Of a stretch of 64,000 nt of DNA, positions 469 to 10,532 are shown piece after piece (positions within the stretch are counted from its first letter, which is position 1; each line of letters begins with the position of its first letter). A program made the translations under genes and the position numbers. Below the pieces are notes generated by a model, which worked only from the letters and a program-made list of their open reading frames with translations, was not told where the DNA came from and did no database searches. Source of the DNA: an uncultured Gammaproteobacteria bacterium (GTDB lineage: Bacteria > Patescibacteriota > Patescibacteriia > SG8-24 > DYFX01); contig CAZHHN010000003.1 in the NCBI GenBank assembly GCA_964532415.1, positions 3,777-67,776 of the forward strand, given 5' to 3'.

Positions 469-1101
469 TCATCGAACCGTTATTTTTCCCGTCGCCCGCT
501 CAGCGAAGACAACGAGCCGTTGGGAATACTGTCTGGCGCGCGTATCCCAGGTCCCGAAGCACGTGATCAGATTCAAACGCGCCTTGCCATCATTGGAAAG
601 AAAAACCTCCGTCGCATCGGCGGTGGCGGCGTACGTCCGTCTTTCGCGGACCGTGAAGGCCATGATCTTTCCCCGATCATCCTGCACGGAAATGACGTCG
701 CCCGGCCGCAACGCGTCCAGGCGTTTGAACACGGCATTCGCTCCATGCAGCCAATTCACGTGGCCGGCGAGCACGGCGCTCCCCTTCTCTCCCGGCTTGG
801 AACCCAACATGTACCAAGCGACGGCCCCGGGATCCTTAGGCACATCCATCGATCCGTCACCCGTCACCGTCACCTTCTCAATGGCCGCATCCACGCCGAC
901 AACGGGGATACTGAGGCGTGTGGGCATCCCGATGTCTTCCTGCGCGATGGATGCCGGCGGATTTTTGGCCGAGACGTGGAGCGGCGCCTCCATGCCGACC
1001 TCGACCCCGGAAACCGCTTTGCGGCGCAGAAAGAAACCAGAGAATATCAGGACGCCGCAGGCTGTCAGCATGCCGAGTACGACGGCTGTTTTTCGACGCA
1101 T
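469..1101 (-). CDS. sortase (Cys transpeptidase) with N-terminal membrane anchor
   Basis: 210 aa. N-terminal TM, conserved His (LAGHVNW), catalytic TLxTC motif (LNLITCFGTWD), downstream Arg (RLVVF). Last gene of a coupled surface-protein operon. Confidence 0.85.
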   Translation of the reverse strand: MRRKTAVVLGMLTACGVLIFSGFFLRRKAVSGVEVGMEAPLHVSAKNPPASIAQEDIGMPTRLSIPVVGVDAAIEKVTVTGDGSMDVPKDPGAVAWYMLGSKPGEKGSAVLAGHVNWLHGANAVFKRLDALRPGDVISVQDDRGKIMAFTVRERRTYAATADATEVFLSNDGKARLNLITCFGTWDTRARQYSQRLVVFAERATGKITVR

Positions 1102-1110
1102 CGGATCTTT

Positions 1111-3207
1111 TTACCGACGCGGCGCTTCCGTTTGTTCAGAAGCTTCGAGCTGATGTCGGCGTGACCGCAGCCGCGCCAGCGCATAGAGAAGGGCGGATAT
1201 CGAGATGAGGGGGAACGAAGTGATGAAAGCGTCCAGCGGTGTCGCGAACAGGCCGCGCGCGGCTTGCGCGAACGCCTGAAGGAACGTCGGCGGCCGTTCC
1301 GGTGCGGACGACGATCCGGCTTCCTCCCCGGTAGAGGTCGCGGGTTCCGTACCGGCCGTGGAAAGGGCCGGGAACGTCTTCGACGGGGGGATGAGCCTGG
1401 CCCGTGTCGTCAGGTCGAAAACGCCGCTCGACGGCAAGCCGACGCTTTTCTGATAGGCGGCGACAGCGAGACGCGTCAACGTCCCGAAATAACCCTTGGC
1501 GGCTCCGCGCGGCATTGTCAGTAAACCCTGCTGCTCAAGCGCCGTCTGAAGCTCGGTGACATCGCTGCCGGACGTACCGATGGCCAAAGACCGATGAGGC
1601 GCGGTGCCCACCCCAATCGTCCCATCATCTGTTAGGGCATCGGTGAAGACGACCCTCCGCAGGGGATAGACGCCGTTGACCTGGTTCCAGATGCCCTCGC
1701 ACGTGATGAGGTTCAGGTGCGCCAGCCCGTCATCAGAAGTGAAGACCGTCGTTGCGTCCGCATCGCGCTCGAACAGGGCAATCTTCCGTACCTTGAAGGC
1801 CAAGCGAGCGCCTTTGTCGTCGACGACGTACACCGCGTCGCCGATCTTGAGTTTATCCAAGTTGAAGAAGACGAAGGGTGTGCCGCTCTGGATCCCGAAA
1901 TGGCCGCCGATGACCGCGCTTCCTTCCTGCCCGGGATGGGGACCGAGCGCGAACCAAGCCACGTTCCTGGAACCTGCGGGCACGTCCATCCTCCCGTCCG
2001 GCGTCAACAGCGCGTCTTCGATCGCCGAATCCACGTTGATAGCCGGAATCCTGAGCCGCACCGGAAGTCCTTGAGGCAAGCCGCCGGGATCCCGTATATC
2101 GGAATAGGCAATGCTGTTCGGTCCGGTCATCGGGAACCTGGCGACCGGATATTTCCAGCCGGTTTCGAGGCTCAACCCGCCGTTTCGATGCAGCTCCGTC
2201 AGCGCCCGAGGATAAACTCCCGTAGCTAAAAGTCCGGCGCCGAGCAGCGCAAGGAACAGCCACTTCGCGCCGGTCATGCCTTTCTTCGGGGGAATACGCT
2301 TCGTCTTTTCCCGCGCCTCGAAGAAGCAGCCGAGCAGGAACGCCAGCATGACCGAAAGGATCCCCCAGATCACAATCTTCATACTCAGAACCTCGCCCGT
2401 TTCCGGGAATTTCGGACTGGCGGCGGCTGCAGTGGAAGTGGGAAAGGCGACCTTGACGGTGAGCGTGGCGCTGCCGATCGCCTTGAAGCCGTTGGCGTTA
2501 CCTCTGACGGTCACCGTGTTCGTCATGGTCCGTTTCAGGATCGTCGTACACGTGTAGATCCAGACTTCATGCGTGTCCAAAAGGCCGTTGCCGTTGACGT
2601 CGCCCAATTTACCCGACATGTCGCGACATTTATCGTCAATGACGGACACGTCCGCCAAGGGCACGTCGCCGGGATTACTGACCCGGTACGTAAACGTGAT
2701 CGGTCCGCCGTCGGTCGGCAGGGATAGGGGGTACGCGACTTTGGTGATGTTGATGATGCTGACCAGCGGCGGCGGGGTGTCCGAGCCAACGGCGACCGTT
2801 GTATAGGCCTCATGCTTCGCGACGATGCCGTTGGAGCTGCCCTTGGCCGTGGCCGTACTCCGCGTCGTCTCGGACAGCATGCTCGTGCAAACGTACCTCC
2901 AGGTTTCGCTCGATTCCAGCAGAGAGTTCCCGTTGTCGTCGCCGCCCGTGTAGACGAGCGGAGCGCAGGCGTTATCGACGACCTGCACGTCCGTCAAAGG
3001 CGCTTCTTCCAGAAAGCTTTTGACTGCGTAGTGATAAATGACTGCGCCCCCTTCCTTTGGCAACGCCAATGGTTCCGGCACTGACGTGATGCCTATCAGC
3101 GGAACGAACATGCCCGGACTCTCCTGGGCCAAAGCGCTTTTTGCGCCGAAGCACAGGATGATTGCGGCGATCAGGAGGAGAGCTCTGCCTTTGGTTTGAA
3201 TCGTCAT
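1111..3207 (-). CDS. DUF11-repeat surface protein with FPETG sorting signal, continuing in-frame into a sortase domain plus peptidoglycan-binding domain (possible fusion or missed stop)
   Basis: Start ATG at 3207 overlaps the upstream stop (ATGA). Signal peptide, two DUF11-type repeats (ITKVAYPLSLPTDGGPITFTYRVSNPGDVPL), then FPETG + hydrophobic stretch + REKTKR. With no stop it continues into a second TM, a sortase domain (LNLITCEGIWN), a PG_binding_1-like segment (GSDVTELQTALEQQGL...) and a C-terminal TM. Confidence 0.6.
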   Translation of the reverse strand: MTIQTKGRALLLIAAIILCFGAKSALAQESPGMFVPLIGITSVPEPLALPKEGGAVIYHYAVKSFLEEAPLTDVQVVDNACAPLVYTGGDDNGNSLLESSETWRYVCTSMLSETTRSTATAKGSSNGIVAKHEAYTTVAVGSDTPPPLVSIINITKVAYPLSLPTDGGPITFTYRVSNPGDVPLADVSVIDDKCRDMSGKLGDVNGNGLLDTHEVWIYTCTTILKRTMTNTVTVRGNANGFKAIGSATLTVKVAFPTSTAAAASPKFPETGEVLSMKIVIWGILSVMLAFLLGCFFEAREKTKRIPPKKGMTGAKWLFLALLGAGLLATGVYPRALTELHRNGGLSLETGWKYPVARFPMTGPNSIAYSDIRDPGGLPQGLPVRLRIPAINVDSAIEDALLTPDGRMDVPAGSRNVAWFALGPHPGQEGSAVIGGHFGIQSGTPFVFFNLDKLKIGDAVYVVDDKGARLAFKVRKIALFERDADATTVFTSDDGLAHLNLITCEGIWNQVNGVYPLRRVVFTDALTDDGTIGVGTAPHRSLAIGTSGSDVTELQTALEQQGLLTMPRGAAKGYFGTLTRLAVAAYQKSVGLPSSGVFDLTTRARLIPPSKTFPALSTAGTEPATSTGEEAGSSSAPERPPTFLQAFAQAARGLFATPLDAFITSFPLISISALLYALARLRSRRHQLEASEQTEAPRR

Positions 3208-5864
3208 ACGTGTGTCCGAAGAATGAAAGCGGACGCGAGCGCCGCAGCGAACGCTCCGAACATCGTCAGGAGCTTCCAAGTGGCGGCGCCCGGCTCGATG
3301 CCCGTATTCGGGAAGCCTGGGACGCTGCCGACCAAGACCCTGACAGTCGCGACATCGTACGCCCTCAGGAAGTTGCCCTCACCGCTGACCGAGATCGTGC
3401 TGGTCGTGCTCACTCGAAGCGTTTTGGTGCACGTATAGATCCAGGTCTCATCAATGCCGAGTTTCGCGTCGCCGTTAACGTCCCCGTTGACGTATTTCAC
3501 CGGACCGCAATCGTCATCGGAGACGCGCACGTTGCTCAGGGCCACGGCGCCAATGTTGGTGACGGCATGCGTATAGGTGACCGGTCCGCCACCGAAAGGC
3601 AGCGACAGGGGATCGGGTATCTTGGTGACGTGGATCAGCGGCGGGGGCAGGGCCGCGCCGACCACGACCGTGGCCTGAGCGCGATCAAGCGCCTTGAAGC
3701 CGTTGGCGACACCGGAGACGATGGCGACGTTCTGGGTCGTTTCCGACAGCATCGCATCGCATCGATACGTCCAGGTTTCGGCCGGATCGAGCTGCCCATC
3801 CGCATCGGCGTCGCCAGAGACCGGGCTTACGGCCGTGCATTTGTTGTCGACGAGCGTCACCCCGATCATCGGGATAGATCCCAGATTCTTGACGGTATAG
3901 GTGTAGGTCACCGGACCGGGTCCGGATGGCAAGGCTAATGGACTCGGAATCTTGGTCAGGCTGATCAAGGGCGATATAGACGCAGATCCCCCCCCGCCGC
4001 CTCCCCCACCCCCTCCGCCCGAAGATGGCGCAGGAACGGCGTTATCATTGTTAATAATCGTGCAGGTCTTGTGCTCGCCGATGGCCAGAGTGACGGTGCC
4101 GTTAGAATCGCAATCTCCGTCGATGCTCGAAGCGTAACCGGCGAAAAGATCTTCGCGAAGCGTATAGGCACCCGGAGCCAGGCCGTAGCTCGTTCCCGGA
4201 GCCAGTGCCCCTCCTGCCGGACTGCCGGCGACGTCGGCTCCGGCCAGCGTCACATGCACGATGAAACTCGGTGCCGTGGCGATGCCGCCGTCATCATTGA
4301 TGACAGCCGTGATGACCTTCAATGTGGCGGGGGGAGGCGTATCGATATCGGTAATCGTGCAGGTCTTGTGCTCGCCGGCGGCCAGCGTGACCGAGCCGCT
4401 CAGGTTGCAATCGCCGCTGACGCTTGAGGTATACCCCGGTAAGACGCTCTGGCTGACCGTATAGGTGCCCGGAACGAGTCCGAACGCCGTCCCGGGAGCC
4501 GGCGCTCCGGGACCCGGACTGCCGGCAATGTCCGCTCCGGAAAGTTTCACATGGACAGTGAAGCTTGAAGCTGTGGCGATGCCACCGTCATCATTGACGA
4601 CATTGGTGACGACATTCAAAGAGGCCGGGGATGGAGGCGTGGCTGGCGGACAAGCGGCACCGCCCACCGCACCGGTCATCTTATTGAAGCTCCATAGATA
4701 GCCGGCATCTCCCAAACCGTAGAAACATTCCCCGATCAGGGTATAGCCGTAGTCGAGCGTGTTGCCGCCGTTCACCGTCGGCCAAGTCTTAGGGCCGGTG
4801 AAATCCCGGCATTGGCTTTGCAGGGCGAAATCGTAACAGAATACGGCATTCTGCGTGGCGAAATACGTCCGCGTGCCATCCTGTACCTCTTCCCTGACGG
4901 ATCCCTGCGATCCGGCGCCGGCAAAAAGGCCGGGTGGTGGCGGCATTGGCGCCCGGGTGCCGATCTTCCAGCATGTCGCGCCTCCGGTGACCGTCGCCGC
5001 GACGCAGATGCCGGAGAGCGTGCCGGACGCGTCATAATTCCCGAAGATGGACGTGAAGCGCCTGGCGGCATCATTCGCTCCCAGGCTCGTCCAGCCATCG
5101 CAACGGGCGTTCGTCAGCGGATCGAAGCATGTCACGCGCGCGTTGTCGGCGATGATCGGCGATTGACCGCCGTAATTGACCAAAAGATAGATGCGCCCCT
5201 CGAGCACCTCCCGGATGACCAGGAAGGACGAGCCGGTATAGGCCGGCATGCCTTCTGTGGCGCCGATGATCGCGTAAGGCTGTCCCGGGCAGGCGGCCTG
5301 CGTCGCGGTGTCGAAGCAATAGGCCCGAAGGTCACGGCCGATCTCGTACAGGCGCGTGCCGGACTGCTCAAGCCCGTCGATCGTGGCCGTAAAGGTCCCG
5401 CCGACGCTCGGCAGGCTTCCGAGCCGGAAATAGCCGCAGTTGGTGCCAGTTTCAAGATCAAAGCAGCTGATTCCGTTATCGGTGGGACGCTGCGCGGCGT
5501 AATACAGCCGTGACGTGACCTGCACGTACCTGGGATGCGTCGAGGTTGAGATATCCGTCGGCCCCGTGTTCGACGTACCGGGCGCGGAACTGAAATATTT
5601 GGGATAGCCCCCGCACAGCTGATCCGTATGCGCGATGACGCAATTGATGTTATAAACGGGGGTCGGCGTGCCGCTCGGAGATTGGTGATGATAAATGGAG
5701 TAGATCCGTTCCTCGCCGCTCTGCATCGTATAGATGATCGGCGTATAGCCGTCCCCTCCCGTTGGGCTGTTGATATTGAAAGCGCGGGCGCCAATGACGC
5801 CCATCAAGCTGAATGCGATCGCTAAGAATACGACCCCTCCCGCCAGCCTTTTGATATAACGCAT
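3204..5864 (-). CDS. large sortase-substrate surface protein (signal peptide, Cys-repeat propeller-like region, two prealbumin/SpaA-like domains, poly-Gly linker, two DUF11 repeats, FPNTG sorting signal)
   Basis: 886 aa. N-terminal signal peptide. Repeated CFD...C segments. Duplicated VINDDGGIATA...GEHKTCTI domains. G13 linker. LTKIPSPLALPSGPGPVTYTYTVKN DUF11 motifs. C-terminal FPNTG + TM + RTHV. Confidence 0.7.
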   Translation of the reverse strand: MRYIKRLAGGVVFLAIAFSLMGVIGARAFNINSPTGGDGYTPIIYTMQSGEERIYSIYHHQSPSGTPTPVYNINCVIAHTDQLCGGYPKYFSSAPGTSNTGPTDISTSTHPRYVQVTSRLYYAAQRPTDNGISCFDLETGTNCGYFRLGSLPSVGGTFTATIDGLEQSGTRLYEIGRDLRAYCFDTATQAACPGQPYAIIGATEGMPAYTGSSFLVIREVLEGRIYLLVNYGGQSPIIADNARVTCFDPLTNARCDGWTSLGANDAARRFTSIFGNYDASGTLSGICVAATVTGGATCWKIGTRAPMPPPPGLFAGAGSQGSVREEVQDGTRTYFATQNAVFCYDFALQSQCRDFTGPKTWPTVNGGNTLDYGYTLIGECFYGLGDAGYLWSFNKMTGAVGGAACPPATPPSPASLNVVTNVVNDDGGIATASSFTVHVKLSGADIAGSPGPGAPAPGTAFGLVPGTYTVSQSVLPGYTSSVSGDCNLSGSVTLAAGEHKTCTITDIDTPPPATLKVITAVINDDGGIATAPSFIVHVTLAGADVAGSPAGGALAPGTSYGLAPGAYTLREDLFAGYASSIDGDCDSNGTVTLAIGEHKTCTIINNDNAVPAPSSGGGGGGGGGGGSASISPLISLTKIPSPLALPSGPGPVTYTYTVKNLGSIPMIGVTLVDNKCTAVSPVSGDADADGQLDPAETWTYRCDAMLSETTQNVAIVSGVANGFKALDRAQATVVVGAALPPPLIHVTKIPDPLSLPFGGGPVTYTHAVTNIGAVALSNVRVSDDDCGPVKYVNGDVNGDAKLGIDETWIYTCTKTLRVSTTSTISVSGEGNFLRAYDVATVRVLVGSVPGFPNTGIEPGAATWKLLTMFGAFAAALASAFILRTHV
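4040..4650. repeat. intragenic ~300-bp tandem duplication (two prealbumin-like domains) preceded by a G13-coding C/G-rich tract
   Basis: atcgtgcaggtcttgtgctcgccg...ccgtcatcattga blocks repeated at ~4040-4340 and ~4340-4640. C-rich run 3985-4030 includes a C7 homopolymer. Confidence 0.6.
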
Positions 5865-6428: not shown

Positions 6429-9188
6429 TCAATGCCCCATGGCCGTCAGGCCTTCGGCATTGGTCACGACGCGGATGCCGGTCGATTGGATGTAGGCGAG
6501 GATCTGGGCGAGGATTTCGGGCGTGGTGCTGTACTGCAGGCCGCTGTGATCGATGTCATGGAGTTCGAGGATCAGCCAGGTCCGATCGGCCAGGGCCTGA
6601 TCGATCCAGCCCTTGATCTGGTCGATGGTCGTGTTCGATTCGACGTGCTGGTCTTCGAGTTCGAACGGGTTGGTGTTCCTGCTGTTGAAACCCTGACGCA
6701 CGCTGCGAGCGCCGCGGTAACCGGCAACGACGACGGCCTGCTCGACGGCGTTGTTGAATTCGCCGTACGGATAGGCGAAGGTCGAAGGATCCATGCCGAG
6801 CGCCGCCAGATCGCTGCGCGCGCCCGCCACCTCGGAGGTCACCTCGGCCGGCGCAAGCTGCGTCAGGTGCGCGTGCGTGCGGGTGTGCGAGCCGATCTCG
6901 TGACCGGCGGAGCGCATGGCGGCCGTCTGGCTCTGGTCGACGTTGCCGCTCAGACCAAAGCTGCCGGTAATGATGTACTGCGTGCTGCGGATGCCGGCGG
7001 CGTCGAGCAGCGGAACGGCGTTCTGATAGACGCTCGTGAGGCCGTCATCGAAGTCCAGCGAGATCATGCCGGCGTCGAACCGGCCGTCGGGCAGTTTTTT
7101 GAGCGAGAAGCTGTCGGTCGTCAATGTGCCGACGCTCTTGATCAAATGAATGGCCGTCATCGACACGGCGTGCGCAGGGACGACGAAACGATCGGCGGCC
7201 TTGGTCCATCCGTCGGCGGACGCAAGGTCCAGGAGATCGAGATAGTCATAATGCCCGTCGTCGAACAGGAACTGCAGCGTGACGAGGCTCGGCGCGGTCG
7301 CCTTGTATTCATCGGAAAACTCGTAGCTCGCGCCGGGCGTGACCGGCACGGGCTGGAAATACCACTTGGCGCCGGAGCCCGAAACGTACGACGTGACGTT
7401 CACCTGCGCCGCGGCCGCGCCGGACTGCCCCGAAACGGGATACGCAAAGCCGGCCTGCGTGCCCGGCGAAGCGGTCCTGAACCAAAAGGCCGGCAGGCCG
7501 GATGCACCAGCAGCGGGCGTCTCAAACGAAGCGTTGACGACGAGGTTATCTGGATCGACGGGCGGCGGCACGTACTGAACGAGCCGGTGCGCGTCGGTCG
7601 CGATCCATCCGACCGATTTGATGAGATGGAAAACGGTCAGCGCGGCGACCGGCGCAGCGTACGACGTCGGGACGGTGAAGGTGCGCGATAGCTCCGTCCA
7701 GACGGATGCGGCCGGCAGGTGCAGCGCGATGTCGGCATACTTGTAGGTGCCGTCCTGCAGGCGATATTGGACCGTCAGGGAGCTCTCGACATTCGACGTG
7801 TAGGCGTCGGAGAACGTGTAGGACTGCCCGCCCGTCACAGCGACCGGCTGAAAGTACCATTTGGCGTCGCCGTTCGTGTAGCCGGTGATTTCCGTTCTTA
7901 TGGCCTTGGCGCCGTCGAAGCCGGCGACCGGATAGGTCAACAGGCGCGTGTTGGCGCCCGAACCGCCTTTCAACCAGCCGACCGGCACGCCGGGAACGGA
8001 CGAAGCTGATTCGACCGAGGGATTCGCGATCAGGTTGGCCGCGGGAGTCAGGAGAGGCGCGATGTCGTCATTGACGATCGTGCACTGTTTGACCGCGTCC
8101 ATGGCGACGGAGACCGAACCGTCCGACGCGCAGTCGCCGGTCACGGTCGATGCGTAGCCGGCATCGGTGATTTCCGAGACGACGTGAGTGCCGGCCTCGA
8201 CAGAGTTCGGCGCTCCGCTCACGACGTTGGCCGCATCGATGAAAGTCGGAAACTCGGCGGCCGTTTTCACACCGCCGTCGTCGTTGATGACGGACACCTG
8301 CACGATGAGCGTGCCGCCGGCATGGTTGCGCGTCTCGACCTGAATCGGCGTGGAAGTCGCGCTGTTCATGGCGGCATCATGCGCCACGACGAACACGCTA
8401 TGGAGGCCGTCGTCTTCCCCACCCGTATCCCAGGCAAAAGCGTAGGGAGCCGAGCCGATTTCATTGCCCGTTTTCAGGCCATCAACGTACAACTGCACGC
8501 CGGTCACGCCGACGTCGTCGCTCGCGGTCGCCGACAGGACGATCACGCCGGTGGCGGGCTGCGGACTGACCGGGGCAAGTGTCACCGTCGGCGAAATCGT
8601 GTCGACGGTTTGCAGGCGGTAATTGTCGGTGACGACCCAGCCGACGGATTTGATCGCGTGGAAAATCGACACGTTCACGACCGGCGAACCGTAATTCTTC
8701 GGCACCGTGAAAGTTTTGGCAGCCTGAGTCCAGTTCGAAGCCGGCGGCAGTCCGGCAAAAAGAACGGGATAACGGTAAGTACCGTCCTGCAGCTGGTATT
8801 GGATCGTCACGACGGTCGTGGCGCTTGAGGTATACCAATCGGAGAAGGCCAGTGTTTGGCCGCCCGACACGCTGACCGGCTGGAAGTACCACTTGGCATC
8901 GCCGTCGGTGTAGCTCGCGATCTCCGTTTTCATCGCTTTGGCCCCATCGATGCCGGCGACCGGATAGGTCAGCGAACGGTTATTGGAACCGAAGCCGCCC
9001 TTCAGCCATGCCAACGGCAGTCCCGCTTTCGATGATGCCGTTTCCGCCGAAGCGTTGGCGATCAGGTTGGCGTCGGCGGCGCGGGCGGGCAAAGCGACGA
9101 ACATCCAAAAAAGAAACAGCGGACCGATGAGCACGCCGAGCGGGATGGACTGCCTTGTATGCCGCCACAGAGACGATCGGTTGCGCAT
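6429..9188 (-). CDS. secreted polysaccharide deacetylase (CE4/NodB domain) with three tandem CBM-like modules and prealbumin-like/Ig-like domains
   Basis: C-terminal NodB-like region (ISLDFDDGLTSVY...GHEIGSHTRTHAHL...AYPYGEF). Three ~190-aa repeats (LIANASAE...WLKGGFG...KWYFQPV...). One VINDDGGVKTA...CTIVNDD domain. Probable start at MRNRSS (9188) with signal/TM. Confidence 0.7.
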   Translation of the reverse strand: MRNRSSLWRHTRQSIPLGVLIGPLFLFWMFVALPARAADANLIANASAETASSKAGLPLAWLKGGFGSNNRSLTYPVAGIDGAKAMKTEIASYTDGDAKWYFQPVSVSGGQTLAFSDWYTSSATTVVTIQYQLQDGTYRYPVLFAGLPPASNWTQAAKTFTVPKNYGSPVVNVSIFHAIKSVGWVVTDNYRLQTVDTISPTVTLAPVSPQPATGVIVLSATASDDVGVTGVQLYVDGLKTGNEIGSAPYAFAWDTGGEDDGLHSVFVVAHDAAMNSATSTPIQVETRNHAGGTLIVQVSVINDDGGVKTAAEFPTFIDAANVVSGAPNSVEAGTHVVSEITDAGYASTVTGDCASDGSVSVAMDAVKQCTIVNDDIAPLLTPAANLIANPSVESASSVPGVPVGWLKGGSGANTRLLTYPVAGFDGAKAIRTEITGYTNGDAKWYFQPVAVTGGQSYTFSDAYTSNVESSLTVQYRLQDGTYKYADIALHLPAASVWTELSRTFTVPTSYAAPVAALTVFHLIKSVGWIATDAHRLVQYVPPPVDPDNLVVNASFETPAAGASGLPAFWFRTASPGTQAGFAYPVSGQSGAAAAQVNVTSYVSGSGAKWYFQPVPVTPGASYEFSDEYKATAPSLVTLQFLFDDGHYDYLDLLDLASADGWTKAADRFVVPAHAVSMTAIHLIKSVGTLTTDSFSLKKLPDGRFDAGMISLDFDDGLTSVYQNAVPLLDAAGIRSTQYIITGSFGLSGNVDQSQTAAMRSAGHEIGSHTRTHAHLTQLAPAEVTSEVAGARSDLAALGMDPSTFAYPYGEFNNAVEQAVVVAGYRGARSVRQGFNSRNTNPFELEDQHVESNTTIDQIKGWIDQALADRTWLILELHDIDHSGLQYSTTPEILAQILAYIQSTGIRVVTNAEGLTAMGH

Positions 9189-9317
9189 CTTACTGATGAG
9201 GATAAGTACCGCGAGGATAGCCCGGAACGGCCCTCTCGTCAAGCGCGCAGACCCGCCCGCGCCGTCAACCGAAAAAGCCCGGGCCAAAGGCCCGGACCTT
9301 TTCCGTCCTTCCGGTGC

Positions 9318-10532
9318 TTACGGCGCAGTCGTGAAGCTCCAGGAGAAGTGGCCGCCGGAAACGGCCATCCCGTTCGCGTCCCGGACGGCGTCCGTGAGCG
9401 TCACCGTATAGGTCGCGGCGGGTTGCAGGCTGGCGGCGGGGGTGAACGTCACGGTATTGCCGGAGACGGCGACAGTACCCGGAACCGGCACGCCCCCAAG
9501 AGTGAGCGTGAAGCTGTCAGCCTTCAGCGTGGAATTCGACATCGGCCCGCTGAAGGTCAGGGAGATCGGCGTCGAGACGGCGATGTTGCTCCCGCTGTCC
9601 GGCGGCGAGATCGAGACGACGGAGGTCATGCCCGTACCGGTCGAACCGGCGGTCGTGAAGGTCCAGGTGTAGTTTGAGGCGAGACCGTGATGGTCCGCGT
9701 CCTGCGCGCCGGTGGTGACGGTGGCGGTGTACGTGGTGCTGGGATCGAGCGTGACATTCGGCGTGAAGACGGCCGTATGGTCGGAAAGCGCGACGGTACC
9801 ATAGATCGGCGTGGCGGAACCCGAAGCGGTCAGGGTGAAGGTCGCGCCGTTCAGCGAGGTGGCCGCCATGGCCGCGTTGAAGGTGGCGGAAACCGGGGTC
9901 GAAACGGACACGCCGGTCGCGCCGGTCGCCGGCACGGTCGCGGTCACCTTCGGAACGTTCCCGCCGTTTTCGGTCACGGCGCTCATGTCATCGTTGAACG
10001 AGACGCTGGCGTGCTGCTCGCCCGCCGGATCGAAATCGGCACAGGAAGCGAGCGGCGTCCCGATCTTGTAGTTGACGAAGAAGGCGTCGGAGATGTCGTC
10101 GATCAGCGTGTTCCAGTTCTGTCCGTAAAGCGAGGCGGCACAGGCTTCATCGGGCACGAGGCGCAGCGTGCCGCCATGGCTGACGACATAGGTTTTCGGA
10201 TCGGACTGGATTTTGAGCATCTTGACGCCCGGCCGGTAGGTGACGTTGCCGCCGATCGTGATGGACGCGAGCTCGTCATCGGTGACCTGCTGGACGCCGG
10301 AGAAATCCCCGTACCACGTCATGTAGGCCTTGTCGTTCGTGAAGACGTAACGCTTGCCGTCGGCGCCGCAATAATAGACGGCGGAGAGCGAGCCTTTGAT
10401 GAGCGTGCCGCTCGGGCAGCCGGCAGCCTGCGCGGGCTTCGCGAGGAAGAGCGCGGAAAGGGACCAGACGGCAGCCGCGATCGCGAGCAGAGCCGCCGCT
10501 GTCGCGCGGCGGTACGTGATGGCCTGAGTCAT
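9318..10532 (-). CDS. secreted protein with tandem bacterial Ig-like (SbsA/Big_5-type) domains
   Basis: 404 aa. Signal peptide (AIAAAVWSLSALFLAKPAQA). Repeated ...TVTTGAQDADHHGLASNYTWTFTTA / ...TVTLTDAVRDANGMAVSGGHFSWSFTTAP Ig-like motifs. Confidence 0.5.
   Translation of the reverse strand: MTQAITYRRATAAALLAIAAAVWSLSALFLAKPAQAAGCPSGTLIKGSLSAVYYCGADGKRYVFTNDKAYMTWYGDFSGVQQVTDDELASITIGGNVTYRPGVKMLKIQSDPKTYVVSHGGTLRLVPDEACAASLYGQNWNTLIDDISDAFFVNYKIGTPLASCADFDPAGEQHASVSFNDDMSAVTENGGNVPKVTATVPATGATGVSVSTPVSATFNAAMAATSLNGATFTLTASGSATPIYGTVALSDHTAVFTPNVTLDPSTTYTATVTTGAQDADHHGLASNYTWTFTTAGSTGTGMTSVVSISPPDSGSNIAVSTPISLTFSGPMSNSTLKADSFTLTLGGVPVPGTVAVSGNTVTFTPAASLQPAATYTVTLTDAVRDANGMAVSGGHFSWSFTTAP

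What the first reader, a model, noticed from the sequence alone, without database searches (positions are those of the whole stretch)
1111..3279. In-frame substrate-sortase fusion: FPETG sorting signal reads straight into a second sortase with a peptidoglycan-binding domain
The ORF encodes a DUF11-repeat surface protein ending in a complete cell-wall sorting signal (FPETG, hydrophobic helix, REKTKR). Without any stop codon it continues into a second TM helix, a full sortase catalytic domain (TLITC), a PG_binding_1-like domain and a final TM. Either this is a genuine single-chain substrate+sortase fusion, or a stop codon/frameshift was lost in assembly. A true fusion could self-process in cis, or the polypeptide could be cleaved at FPETG by the neighbouring standalone sortase.
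Basis: seen in the sequence. Interest (0 to 1): 0.55.

Follow-up and report, generated by a model that had tools for sequence, protein, structure and literature searches.

The report
Natural surface-protein–sortase fusion gene
A candidate-phyla-radiation (Patescibacteria) bacterium encodes, as one real and evolutionarily recurrent polypeptide, a pilin-like surface protein with its cell-wall sorting signal joined through a two-helix membrane hairpin to the sortase enzyme that normally sits in the next gene, an arrangement I could not find described in the literature I searched.

Summary
A 698-aa ORF (minus strand, ATG 3207 to stop 1111) reads without a stop. It runs signal peptide, two CLIPPER_2/DUF7507 domains, FPETG, TM, a basic loop, a second TM, a sortase domain, PG_binding_1 and a C-terminal TM.

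It is not an assembly error. The identical ORF occurs in independent assemblies of three listed sequencing runs. Twenty-seven other fused homologues (49-61% identity) exist in independent metagenomes.

In three unfused relatives examined, the two halves are adjacent, sometimes overlapping, genes: a 327-362-aa FPxTG substrate, then a 385-413-aa sortase. So this is a gene fusion. Parsimony on NJ trees suggests it arose or reverted at least nine times.

The membrane topology of both halves is preserved. The most likely mechanism, not shown, is sortase cleavage at FPET|G, which would separate the halves again. Seven of 28 fused proteins have lost the motif, against 1 of 112 unfused substrates, so some lineages probably keep the module tethered.

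The catalytic domain is class-F-like by sequence and nearest to class C pilus sortases by fold. It carries a second, better-conserved FPxTG at the position of the class C "lid".

Related TM-less adhesin-LPxTG-sortase proteins also exist. Verdict: a new variant of a known kind, of moderate to high interest.

The parts
1111..3207 (-). Fusion CDS: 698 aa plus stop. The maximal ORF extends to 3279.
   Evidence: The identical product is called in independent assemblies.
3127..3207 (-). Signal peptide (aa 1-27, ...KSALA|QE). The ATG overlaps the TGA of the upstream gene as ATGA.
   Evidence: Read from the sequence. Helix 6-20 in the model.
2773..3111 (-). First CLIPPER_2-like beta-sandwich domain (aa ~33-145). 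It has no isopeptide-type Lys at the position of K156.
   Evidence: pLDDT 91-97 across aa 41-140, all beta strands. Conserved C81/C107.
2443..2766 (-). Second CLIPPER_2 (DUF7507) domain (aa ~148-255), with invariant K156, D191 and N230 (candidate intramolecular isopeptide triad) and invariant C194/C220.
   Evidence: Pfam PF24346, 25 bits over aa 152-237. Invariant columns. Family description in PMC12617251. The triad assignment is inference.
2395..2409 (-). Sorting motif FPETG (aa 267-271), in a predicted disordered linker.
   Evidence: pLDDT below 50 for aa 259-273. The same motif ends the unfused substrates.
2320..2376 (-). TM1 (aa 278-296), the hydrophobic part of the sorting signal.
   Evidence: Hydropathy. 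Lies within helix 274-302.
2263..2319 (-). Basic cytoplasmic loop EAREKTKRIPPKKGMTGAK (aa 297-315). It combines the charged tail of the substrate with the N-terminus of the sortase, and includes M311 (ATG 2275-2277).
   Evidence: In the alignment of fused homologues the Met is not conserved.
2212..2262 (-). TM2 (aa 316-332), the signal-anchor of the sortase half.
   Evidence: Lies within helix 313-341. Corresponds to the hydrophobic N-terminus of the unfused sortases, by inspection of their translations.
2080..2160 (-). Conserved but predicted-disordered pre-catalytic segment GWKYPVARFPMTGPNSIAYSDIRDPGG (aa 350-376). It holds a second sorting-motif-like FPMTG (aa 358-362, nt 2122-2136) at the position of the class C lid.
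   Evidence: W351, P354, P359, G362, Y368, S369, I371 and P374-G376 are invariant. The motif is present in 78 of 81 family members. pLDDT is below 50 in two models. The alignment to A. oris SrtC2 starts at its residue D118, right after its lid sequence HVPTG 108-112.
1645..2055 (-). Sortase catalytic domain (aa 385-521): H436, C503 (LNLITCEG; Cys codon 1699-1701) and R517.
   Evidence: Pfam 65.8 bits. Invariant or near-invariant catalytic residues. Foldseek top hits are class C sortases.
1393..1572 (-). PG_binding_1 domain (aa 546-605).
   Evidence: Pfam 47.3 bits. pLDDT ~90. Profile hits to SleB and endolysin PG-binding domains.
1174..1230 (-). C-terminal TM helix (aa 660-678), followed by the basic tail RLRSRRHQ...
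3204..5864 (-). Upstream operon gene: an 886-aa adhesin-like sortase substrate (SpaA_2 x2, CLIPPER/CLIPPER_2 x2, FPNTG + TM + RTHV). Its C-terminal stalk (aa 632-868) is 42% identical to the N-terminal half of the fusion.
469..1101 (-). Downstream operon gene: a stand-alone 200-210-aa class-F-like sortase. It is 42% identical to the fused catalytic domain and lacks the FPxTG/DPGG segment.

Best explanation
This is a genuine, heritable fusion of two neighbouring operon genes of a Patescibacteria surface-fibre/adhesin cluster. The first is a small two-domain CLIPPER_2 (isopeptide-type, pilin-like) protein ending in an [FL]Px[TVA]G + TM + basic-tail sorting signal. The second is the sortase encoded immediately downstream, which carries an N-terminal signal-anchor, a class-C-like catalytic domain, a PG_binding_1 domain and a C-terminal TM.

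Shown:
- The fusion is real.
- It recurs and is inherited in clades.
- Both halves stay under purifying selection, including the catalytic His/Cys/Arg and the K/D/N/Cys residues of the CLIPPER_2 domain.
- In most fused homologues no Met marks the sortase start, so the enzyme can only be made as part of the fusion.

Inferred:
- The substrate's TM runs out-to-in and the sortase anchor runs in-to-out, joined by a cytoplasmic loop with a net charge of about +5. The fusion therefore forms a neutral TM hairpin that leaves every ectodomain outside.
- After export, a sortase active site attacks FPET|G. This could be its own site, reaching back on a ~50-residue flexible tether, or that of another copy or the neighbouring stand-alone sortase.
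- Cleavage would release the CLIPPER_2 module as an acyl-enzyme. The module would then be transferred to peptidoglycan/lipid II, or to a lysine of another fibre subunit.
- The sortase would stay in the membrane with an extra N-terminal hairpin. The fusion would thus be undone post-translationally, which would explain why it is tolerated and arises repeatedly.

The window protein keeps the commonest canonical motif (FPETG), so it is probably of the cleavable kind.
For: - The continuous ORF with all elements is present.
- The identical ORF is in independent assemblies.
- Twenty-seven fused homologues at 49-61% identity come from four data sources.
- In unfused loci L001, L002 and L009 the upstream gene (327-362 aa) ends in a sorting-type motif (FPETG in L001 and L002; a variant, LSNAG, in L009) + TM + basic tail + stop. 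It overlaps the sortase-PG_binding gene by 4 nt or lies 11-15 nt before it, in the same synteny with a large adhesin and a small sortase.
- Fused loci share this synteny.
- By parsimony the fused/unfused state changes at least 9 times in every one of 100 bootstrap NJ trees (median 14.5). It is still more clustered than shuffled labels (median 23, minimum 17), and there are all-fused clades of up to 5 members.
- 21 of 28 fused proteins keep an [FL]Px[TVA]G motif 4-19 residues before TM1. The same grammar is used by 108 of 112 unfused substrates.
- AF2 predicts the FPETG linker and the 335-380 tether as disordered, and predicts two consecutive helices at 274-302 and 313-341.
- The catalytic residues are invariant or near-invariant.
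Against: - No experimental or proteomic evidence of cleavage is available.
- Seven of 28 fused homologues have no recognisable motif, against 1 of 112 unfused substrates (Fisher p = 4.5e-5, not corrected for phylogeny). Cleavage is therefore not obligatory for the fused state.
- The NJ trees are star-like, so the number of fusion and fission events is uncertain.
- Which sortase, if any, recognises FPETG is unknown.
- AF2 gives no information on docking.
Confidence: 0.6

Rival explanations
1. Uncleaved, permanently tethered module. The CLIPPER_2 domains have become an N-terminal ectodomain of the sortase, for example a spacer, scaffold or acceptor-presenting module held next to the active site. 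FPETG would then be a relic, or used only occasionally.
For: - 25% of fused homologues have lost the motif, yet they keep the CLIPPER_2 invariant residues K156, D191, C194, C220 and N230.
- The motif is lost about 28 times more often in fused than in unfused proteins.
Against: - The window protein retains FPETG, the commonest canonical form among unfused substrates (24 of 120), 4 residues before the TM as in free substrates.
- 75% of fused proteins retain a motif despite about 45% overall divergence and a poorly conserved surrounding linker.
Confidence: 0.25
2. Sequencing or assembly artefact, or a very recent inactivating mutation that removed the stop codon between two genes.
For: - In unfused relatives the genes overlap by 4 nt or are 11-15 nt apart, so a single indel or stop mutation could join them.
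- Fused and unfused forms are interleaved in the tree.
Against: - The identical fused ORF was assembled independently from three listed runs.
- The fused state is inherited in clades whose members are only about 55-60% identical.
- Fused forms make up roughly a third of the sortase-containing hits, far above any error rate.
- Both halves are conserved like their free counterparts.
Confidence: 0.03
3. Two products from one ORF. The full-length fusion is made, and an independent sortase is also translated from the internal ATG at M311 (nt 2277-2275). The fusion would then be functionally irrelevant.
For: M311 lies at the position where the unfused sortases start (compare). A weak purine-rich stretch (GAAGAAAGG) precedes it.
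Against: - The purine stretch ends 1 nt before the ATG, which is poor spacing.
- None of the other fused homologues has a conserved Met at this column, so in the family the sortase must be made as a fusion.
Confidence: 0.1

Closest known systems
Gram-positive pilus islands and dedicated sortase-substrate gene pairs (class C sortase plus pilins; sortase with an adjacent single target, as described for the Gram-negative sortase TIGR03784 in PMC3237569)
   Same: - An operon of isopeptide-domain surface proteins with LPxTG-type signals plus two sortases, one of them small and 'housekeeping-like'.
- The enzyme has a C-terminal TM, as class C sortases do (my own knowledge).
- Foldseek's best PDB matches are class C sortases.
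- In unfused relatives the substrate and the enzyme are adjacent genes.
   Different: - Here substrate and enzyme are one polypeptide joined by a TM hairpin.
- The host is a Patescibacteria bacterium.
- The motif is [FL]Px[TVA]G.
- The enzyme carries a PG_binding_1 domain.
- By sequence it scores best, but below threshold, as class F.
Lid of class C sortases, in particular Actinomyces oris SrtC2 (PDB 8T28), whose lid (residues 97-122) contains HVPTG at 108-112 (PMC11131087)
   Same: - A flexible segment immediately N-terminal to the catalytic barrel.
- The phmmer alignment of the window sortase to SrtC2 begins at D118, so FPMTG falls within 0-5 residues of the position of HVPTG.
- It is conserved in sequence but predicted disordered.
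   Different: - The family motif obeys the same grammar as its real substrates (position 4: T 57, V 9, A 9, L 3). It is a much closer substrate mimic.
- There is no DP[WFY] motif; instead there is an invariant DPGG.
- Occlusion of the active site is not shown.
Engineered self-cleaving sortase-LPETG fusion tags for protein purification (my own knowledge, not retrieved here; PMC4658790, which surfaced, is a related application)
   Same: Enzyme and its recognition motif sit in one chain. Cleavage in cis or in trans releases the cargo.
   Different: - Those constructs are artificial, soluble and ordered sortase-LPETG-cargo.
- This one is natural, membrane-embedded and ordered cargo-FPETG-TM-TM-sortase.
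C-terminal autoprocessing/transfer domains such as Hedgehog Hint domains (conceptual analogue, my own knowledge)
   Same: A C-terminal catalytic domain that could cleave the bond just upstream and hand the N-terminal domain to a nucleophile via a (thio)ester. The TM-less relatives (P0096 and others) fit this logic best.
   Different: There is no homology, and no evidence yet that the reaction occurs in cis.

Membership tests
Sortase superfamily (PF04203, cysteine transpeptidase) | Profile match above the curated threshold | tested here: met
   65.8 bits against a cut-off of 26.6, aa 385-521.
Sortase superfamily (PF04203, cysteine transpeptidase) | Catalytic His, Cys (TLxTC-type motif) and Arg | tested here: met
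   H436 (GGHFG) and C503 (NLITCEG) are invariant or near-invariant, and R517 is near-invariant, in 29 fused and 52 unfused homologues.
Class F sortase (NCBIfam NF033748) | Score at or above the curated subfamily cut-off | tested here: not met
   This is the best-scoring class, but at 99.1 bits against a cut-off of 166. The stand-alone neighbour scores 125 against 166.
Class C (pilus-specific) sortase | Score at or above the NF033745 cut-off | tested here: not met
   25.1 bits against 160.
Class C (pilus-specific) sortase | Fold closest to class C structures | tested here: inconclusive
   The top 19 Foldseek PDB hits are class C sortases (E 1e-8 to 2.5e-7, TM-score normalised to target 0.51-0.60). 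Class A hits follow at about 1e-6. The best PDB sequence hit is A. oris SrtC2.
Class C (pilus-specific) sortase | N-terminal lid with a DP[W/F/Y] motif covering the active site | tested here: inconclusive
   A conserved segment lies at the lid position (FPxTG ... DPGG) but has no aromatic residue after DP. AF2 leaves it undocked, with pLDDT below 50.
Class C (pilus-specific) sortase | C-terminal membrane anchor and genomic linkage to pilin-like substrates | tested here: met
   A C-terminal TM plus basic tail is found in nearly all members. Neighbouring genes encode SpaA_2/CLIPPER proteins with sorting signals.
LPXTG-type cell-wall sorting signal | Tripartite motif + hydrophobic helix + basic cluster | tested here: met
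   FPETG, then 6 residues, then IVIWGILSVMLAFLLGCFF, then EAREKTKRIPPKK. Homologous to the C-termini of free substrates.
LPXTG-type cell-wall sorting signal | Located at the extreme C-terminus of the protein | tested here: not met
   427 residues follow the motif.
LPXTG-type cell-wall sorting signal | Cleaved between T and G and transferred to a nucleophile | not testable with these tools
   Requires biochemistry or proteomics.
CLIPPER_2 / DUF7507 (PF24346) isopeptide domain | Profile match above threshold | tested here: inconclusive
   25.0 bits against a cut-off of 27 for the window protein. Most homologues carry PF24346 in the precomputed annotation. The paralogous stalk of the upstream gene scores 49.6.
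CLIPPER_2 / DUF7507 (PF24346) isopeptide domain | Lys-Asp/Glu-Asn isopeptide triad | tested here: inconclusive
   K156, D191 and N230 are invariant in domain 2. Their spacing is similar to K715/D748/N806 of the solved CLIPPER domain (PMC12617251). No coordinates were available to check the geometry. Domain 1 lacks the Lys.
PG_binding_1 (PF01471) | Profile match above threshold | tested here: met
   47.3 bits against 23, aa 546-605. Profile hits to SleB and endolysin PG-binding domains.

The most novel reading that the evidence does not exclude
These Patescibacteria sortases may act on motifs in their own chain. On this reading the fusion is an 'auto-sorting' polyprotein in which each enzyme molecule arrives pre-loaded with one substrate. 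The invariant FPxTG at the lid position would be a true cis substrate or pseudosubstrate that gates the active site. The related TM-less proteins (signal peptide, adhesin domains, LPxTG, 12-45 aa, C-terminal sortase; P0096, P0346, P0352, P0355, P0361, P0269, P0092) would be self-contained, single-turnover adhesins. They would cleave themselves and covalently attach their adhesin part to an amine nucleophile, conceivably on the cell wall of the host bacterium of these episymbionts. This would be a Hedgehog-like autoprocessing use of the sortase fold.
Probability: 0.25. Interest if true: 0.85.

Novelty: new variant of a known kind. Interest (0 to 1): 0.58.

Why it matters
Sortases and their substrates have, as far as I know, been treated as separate proteins that meet in the membrane. 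A natural, recurrent and conserved single-chain version has several uses.

1. It pairs one sortase with one substrate and one motif grammar ([FL]Px[TVA]G) in an uncultivated phylum where no sortase specificity is known.
2. It offers a natural experiment on whether sortases can work in cis, and on what happens when the motif is lost.
3. It points to a literal substrate-mimicking lid, and to TM-less adhesin-sortase proteins that could be self-attaching adhesins. This is relevant to how ultrasmall episymbiotic bacteria build their surface and hold on to hosts.
4. It may supply new self-processing ligase modules for protein engineering.

Tried and rejected
- **Mutational event.** I tried to reconstruct the event that joined the genes by aligning the junction DNA of a fused locus (L010, P0017) with its nearest unfused relative (L009, P0032). 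The linker is too diverged to tell whether it was stop loss or a frameshift.
- **Lid alignment.** A family profile searched against PDB sequences, meant to extend the alignment into the class C lid, matched mainly PG-binding domains and did not cover the lid.
- **Lid docking.** Two AlphaFold2 runs (full length with 149 sequences; sortase half with 52 sequences) both left aa 335-380 at pLDDT below 50. No docking of FPMTG into the active site can be claimed. The tool returns no coordinates, so cis reach, contacts and isopeptide geometry could not be measured.
- **Lysine nucleophile.** I considered the WKFPVAKFP segment as a pilin-motif lysine nucleophile. I rejected this because the Lys before FP is R, Q or D in several members, including this window.
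- **Conserved YN of SrtC2.** I first assumed that AYS 367-369 matched the conserved 'YN' of SrtC2. The paper places YN at Y93/N94, upstream of the lid, so I dropped that claim.
- **Literature.** Searches for natural substrate-sortase fusions, CPR sortases, class F sortases and sortase domain architectures returned nothing describing this architecture. Absence from this library is not proof of novelty.
Full report
**1. What is in the sequence**

On the minus strand an ORF runs from 3279 to 1111. The likely start is the ATG at 3207-3205. It overlaps the TGA (3206-3204) of the upstream gene as ATGA. The same boundaries were called in an independent assembly (L004: 344..3004 and 3001..5097), and homologues begin at the equivalent position. 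The product has 698 aa.

Reading along it:
- signal peptide, aa 1-27
- two beta-sandwich domains, aa ~33-145 and ~148-255 (pLDDT above 90); the second matches CLIPPER_2/DUF7507 at 25 bits against a cut-off of 27
- a disordered linker carrying FPETG (aa 267-271)
- a hydrophobic helix (aa 278-296)
- the basic loop EAREKTKRIPPKKGMTGAK
- a second hydrophobic helix (aa 316-332)
- a ~50-residue disordered tether
- a sortase domain (Pfam 65.8 bits, aa 385-521; H436, C503 in LNLITCEG, R517)
- a PG_binding_1 domain (47.3 bits, aa 546-605)
- a disordered stretch, then a C-terminal helix (aa 660-678) with a basic tail

There is no stop in the frame. In a six-frame scan of the window this is the only internal 'motif + TM + basic cluster'. 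The only other sorting signal is the C-terminal FPNTG of the upstream gene.

**2. The fusion is real, not an artefact**

The identical 698-aa product is encoded on contigs assembled separately from three listed sequencing runs (SRR8931230, SRR8931232, SRR8931233). Four contigs were read, and the collection also records an NCBI source. A search of 5.8 billion proteins returned 27 further proteins of 618-731 aa with 49-61% identity and the same uninterrupted architecture. They come from NCBI, JGI, ENA and Logan, and the named ones are Patescibacteria.

The same search returned about 50 proteins of 383-475 aa that correspond to the C-terminal half only (sortase + PG_binding_1). A search with the N-terminal half returned 316 hits, and the best 120 were all free proteins of 286-348 aa.

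I inspected three unfused loci (L001, L002, L009). In each, the free substrate gene (327-362 aa) lies immediately upstream of the free sortase gene. It ends in FPETG (L001, L002) or a variant, LSNAG (L009), then a TM, a basic tail and a stop. It overlaps the sortase gene by 4 nt or is separated from it by 11-15 nt. Fused and unfused loci share synteny with a large adhesin (Ice_binding/SpaA_2/CLIPPER_2) and, in most, a small stand-alone sortase. So the window protein is the product of a gene fusion between a dedicated substrate and its neighbouring enzyme.

**3. Evolutionary behaviour**

I built an NJ tree of the catalytic + PG-binding region from 80 family members. On it the fused/unfused character needs 11 changes by parsimony. 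Across 100 bootstrap trees it needs at least 9 (median 14.5). That is fewer than with shuffled labels (median 23, minimum 17), and there are all-fused clades of up to five members that are only about 55-60% identical. The trees are star-like, so the exact number is soft. Still, the pattern indicates several independent fusions or fissions, each then inherited for a long time.

Both halves of fused proteins are as conserved as their free counterparts. The catalytic residues, and K156/D191/N230/C194/C220 of the second CLIPPER_2 domain, are invariant in all 29 aligned fused sequences. The Met at the junction of the window protein (M311) is not conserved in other fused proteins. In the family, therefore, the enzyme can only be made as part of the fusion.

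**4. The sorting motif**

Free substrates use [FL]Px[TVA]G. By the rule applied, position 4 is T in 77 of 112 and V or A in 31 of 112, with L/M/S in 3 and no motif in 1. FPETG is the commonest single form. Among 28 fused proteins, 15 have T, 6 have V or A, and 7 have no recognisable motif. The excess of motif loss gives Fisher p = 4.5e-5, though this is not corrected for shared ancestry.

I read this as follows. The fused state is usually still cleavable, but it relaxes the requirement for cleavage. In some lineages the CLIPPER_2 module has probably become a permanently tethered ectodomain. The window protein has the canonical FPETG, 4 residues before the hydrophobic segment detected, like free substrates.

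**5. How it most likely works**

*Shown.* The architecture, the conservation and the topological elements are established.

*Inferred from the established sortase pathway* (signal-peptide export, retention by the TM and basic tail, Cys attack on the T-G bond, and transfer of the acyl-enzyme to an amine). The substrate's TM crosses the membrane out-to-in, the basic loop (net charge about +5) stays cytoplasmic, and the sortase's own anchor crosses in-to-out. A head-to-tail fusion therefore keeps every domain on its native side. The catalytic domain hangs on a ~50-residue disordered tether (aa 335-380), long enough to reach the membrane-proximal FPETG of its own chain or of a neighbour.

Cleavage at FPET|G would release the two-domain module as an acyl-enzyme. 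The module would then be transferred to the wall or to another subunit. The enzyme would be left with an extra N-terminal hairpin. Because processing restores two separate proteins, the fusion would be nearly neutral, which fits its recurrence.

The locus looks like a small fibre or adhesin system. The N-terminal half of the fusion is 42% identical to the C-terminal stalk (aa 632-868) of the upstream 886-aa FPNTG adhesin, so it is a 'stalk-only' paralogue reminiscent of a minor or basal pilin. The two sortases are 42% identical. Which sortase handles which substrate, and whether cleavage is in cis, cannot be decided here.

**6. What kind of sortase**

By sequence the best NCBIfam class is F, but below the cut-off (99 against 166 bits); class C scores 25 against 160. 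By predicted fold, the 19 best PDB matches are all class C pilus sortases: GBS SrtC1 and SrtC2, A. oris SrtC1 and SrtC2, and S. pneumoniae SrtC-1 (E 1e-8 to 2.5e-7). Class A follows at about 1e-6. The best PDB sequence hit is A. oris SrtC2. The C-terminal TM and the linkage to isopeptide-domain substrates are also class-C-like. I therefore describe it as a class-F-like sequence with class-C-like features, and I do not file it in either class.

**7.

Between TM2 and the catalytic barrel lies GWKYPVARFPMTGPNSIAYSDIRDPGG. W351, P354, P359, G362, Y368, S369, I371 and P374-G376 are invariant in fused proteins. An [FL]Px[TVAL]G motif occurs at this place in 78 of 81 family members, fused or not. Its position-4 usage (T 57, V 9, A 9, L 3) mirrors that of the real substrates. 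The stand-alone sortase lacks this segment.

The segment is strongly conserved yet predicted disordered in both models, which is the behaviour of a linear motif. The phmmer alignment to A. oris SrtC2 starts at its residue D118. That is immediately after the SrtC2 lid sequence HVPTG (108-112), which lies within the lid (residues 97-122) that partly covers the active site (PMC11131087). FPMTG is thus at the lid-equivalent position. A pseudosubstrate lid is my preferred reading. A genuine cis cleavage site is the alternative. Neither is shown.

**8. Related things found on the way**

Most family members also carry an [LIF]PxT[GA] after the PG-binding domain, about 45 residues before the C-terminal TM and basic tail. 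This element is degenerate in the window protein, which reads FPALS. It could make the sortase itself a sortase substrate.

The 50%-representative search and the first search also surfaced at least seven proteins from different clusters: P0096 from a 1.6-Mb Gracilibacteria contig, plus P0092, P0269, P0346, P0352, P0355 and P0361. In these, a signal peptide and adhesin domains are followed by an LPxTG-like motif ([FLT]Px[TAS]G across the seven). After only 12-45 residues comes a C-terminal sortase domain that ends the protein, with no TM anywhere after the signal peptide. These are a second, more radical kind of natural substrate-sortase fusion, and the best candidates for cis autoprocessing.

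**9. Novelty and verdict**

Databases label these proteins simply 'sortase' or 'LPXTG-site transpeptidase family protein'. I found no paper describing a natural substrate-sortase fusion, CPR sortase specificity or a sorting-motif lid of this kind. The library lacks many subscription papers, so this is weak evidence of novelty.

All the components are known: sortase, sorting signal, CLIPPER_2, PG_binding_1 and pilus-island logic. The single-chain arrangement, its recurrence, the motif decay after fusion and the substrate-like lid are new variants.

My confidence:
- genuine fusion: about 0.95
- processed at FPETG in this organism: about 0.6
- motif 2 is a lid or pseudosubstrate: about 0.4

Interest: 0.58.

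Noticed in passing
window 2122-2136 (aa 358-362), within 2080-2160: A second sorting-motif-like FPMTG lies between TM2 and the catalytic domain. It is present in 78 of 81 family members, with the same position-4 usage (T, then V or A, then L) as real substrates, followed by invariant AYSDIRDPGG. It is predicted disordered. It sits at the position of the class C sortase lid; the A. oris SrtC2 lid contains HVPTG.
   Followed up: partly
window ~1300-1390 (aa ~607-637); homologues P0002-P0089: Most sortase-PG_binding family members carry an [LIF]PxT[GA] motif after the PG-binding domain, about 45 residues before the C-terminal TM and basic tail. This is a possible third sorting signal that would make the sortase itself a substrate. 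The window protein has only a degenerate FPALS there.
   Followed up: partly
P0096 (Gracilibacteria, 1.6-Mb contig), P0092, P0269, P0346, P0352, P0355, P0361: A second class of natural fusions: signal peptide, adhesin domains (Ice_binding, SpaA_2, CLIPPER_2), an LPxTG-like motif ([FLT]Px[TAS]G across the seven), 12-45 residues, then a C-terminal sortase domain ending the protein. There is no TM after the signal peptide. These are candidates for self-cleaving, self-attaching adhesins.
   Followed up: partly
homologues P0004, P0013, P0014, P0021, P0023, P0026, P0027: Seven fused homologues have lost the junction sorting motif while keeping all invariant CLIPPER_2 and sortase residues. Only 1 of 112 free substrates has lost it.
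   Followed up: yes
window 3204-5864 (-): The upstream 886-aa FPNTG protein has a ~400-aa N-terminal region with no Pfam match. It continues with two SpaA_2 domains and a run of 13 glycines (SSGGGGGGGGGGGGGSAS). Its two-CLIPPER stalk is 42% identical to the N-terminal half of the fusion, so the fused substrate is a stalk-only paralogue.
   Followed up: partly
unfused substrates P0121-P0240: The sorting-motif grammar of this Patescibacteria family is [FL]Px[TVA]G. By the rule, about 28% of the free substrates with a detectable TM (31 of 112) carry Val or Ala instead of the usual Thr at the scissile position, and a few carry Leu, Met or Ser. This is unusual for sortase substrates.
   Followed up: partly
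window 6429-9287 (-) and 9318-10532 (-): Further cell-surface genes sit next to the cluster. One is a 952-aa protein with three similar N-terminal repeats (CBM_4_9-like), a Big_7 domain and a C-terminal polysaccharide deacetylase. The other is a 404-aa Big_5 protein. Neither has a sorting signal.
   Followed up: no
L002 4617-5018; L003 1171-1578: In some unfused loci two tiny ORFs (55-57 aa and 74 aa, no Pfam match) sit between the large adhesin and the substrate gene. The window has no equivalent.
   Followed up: no
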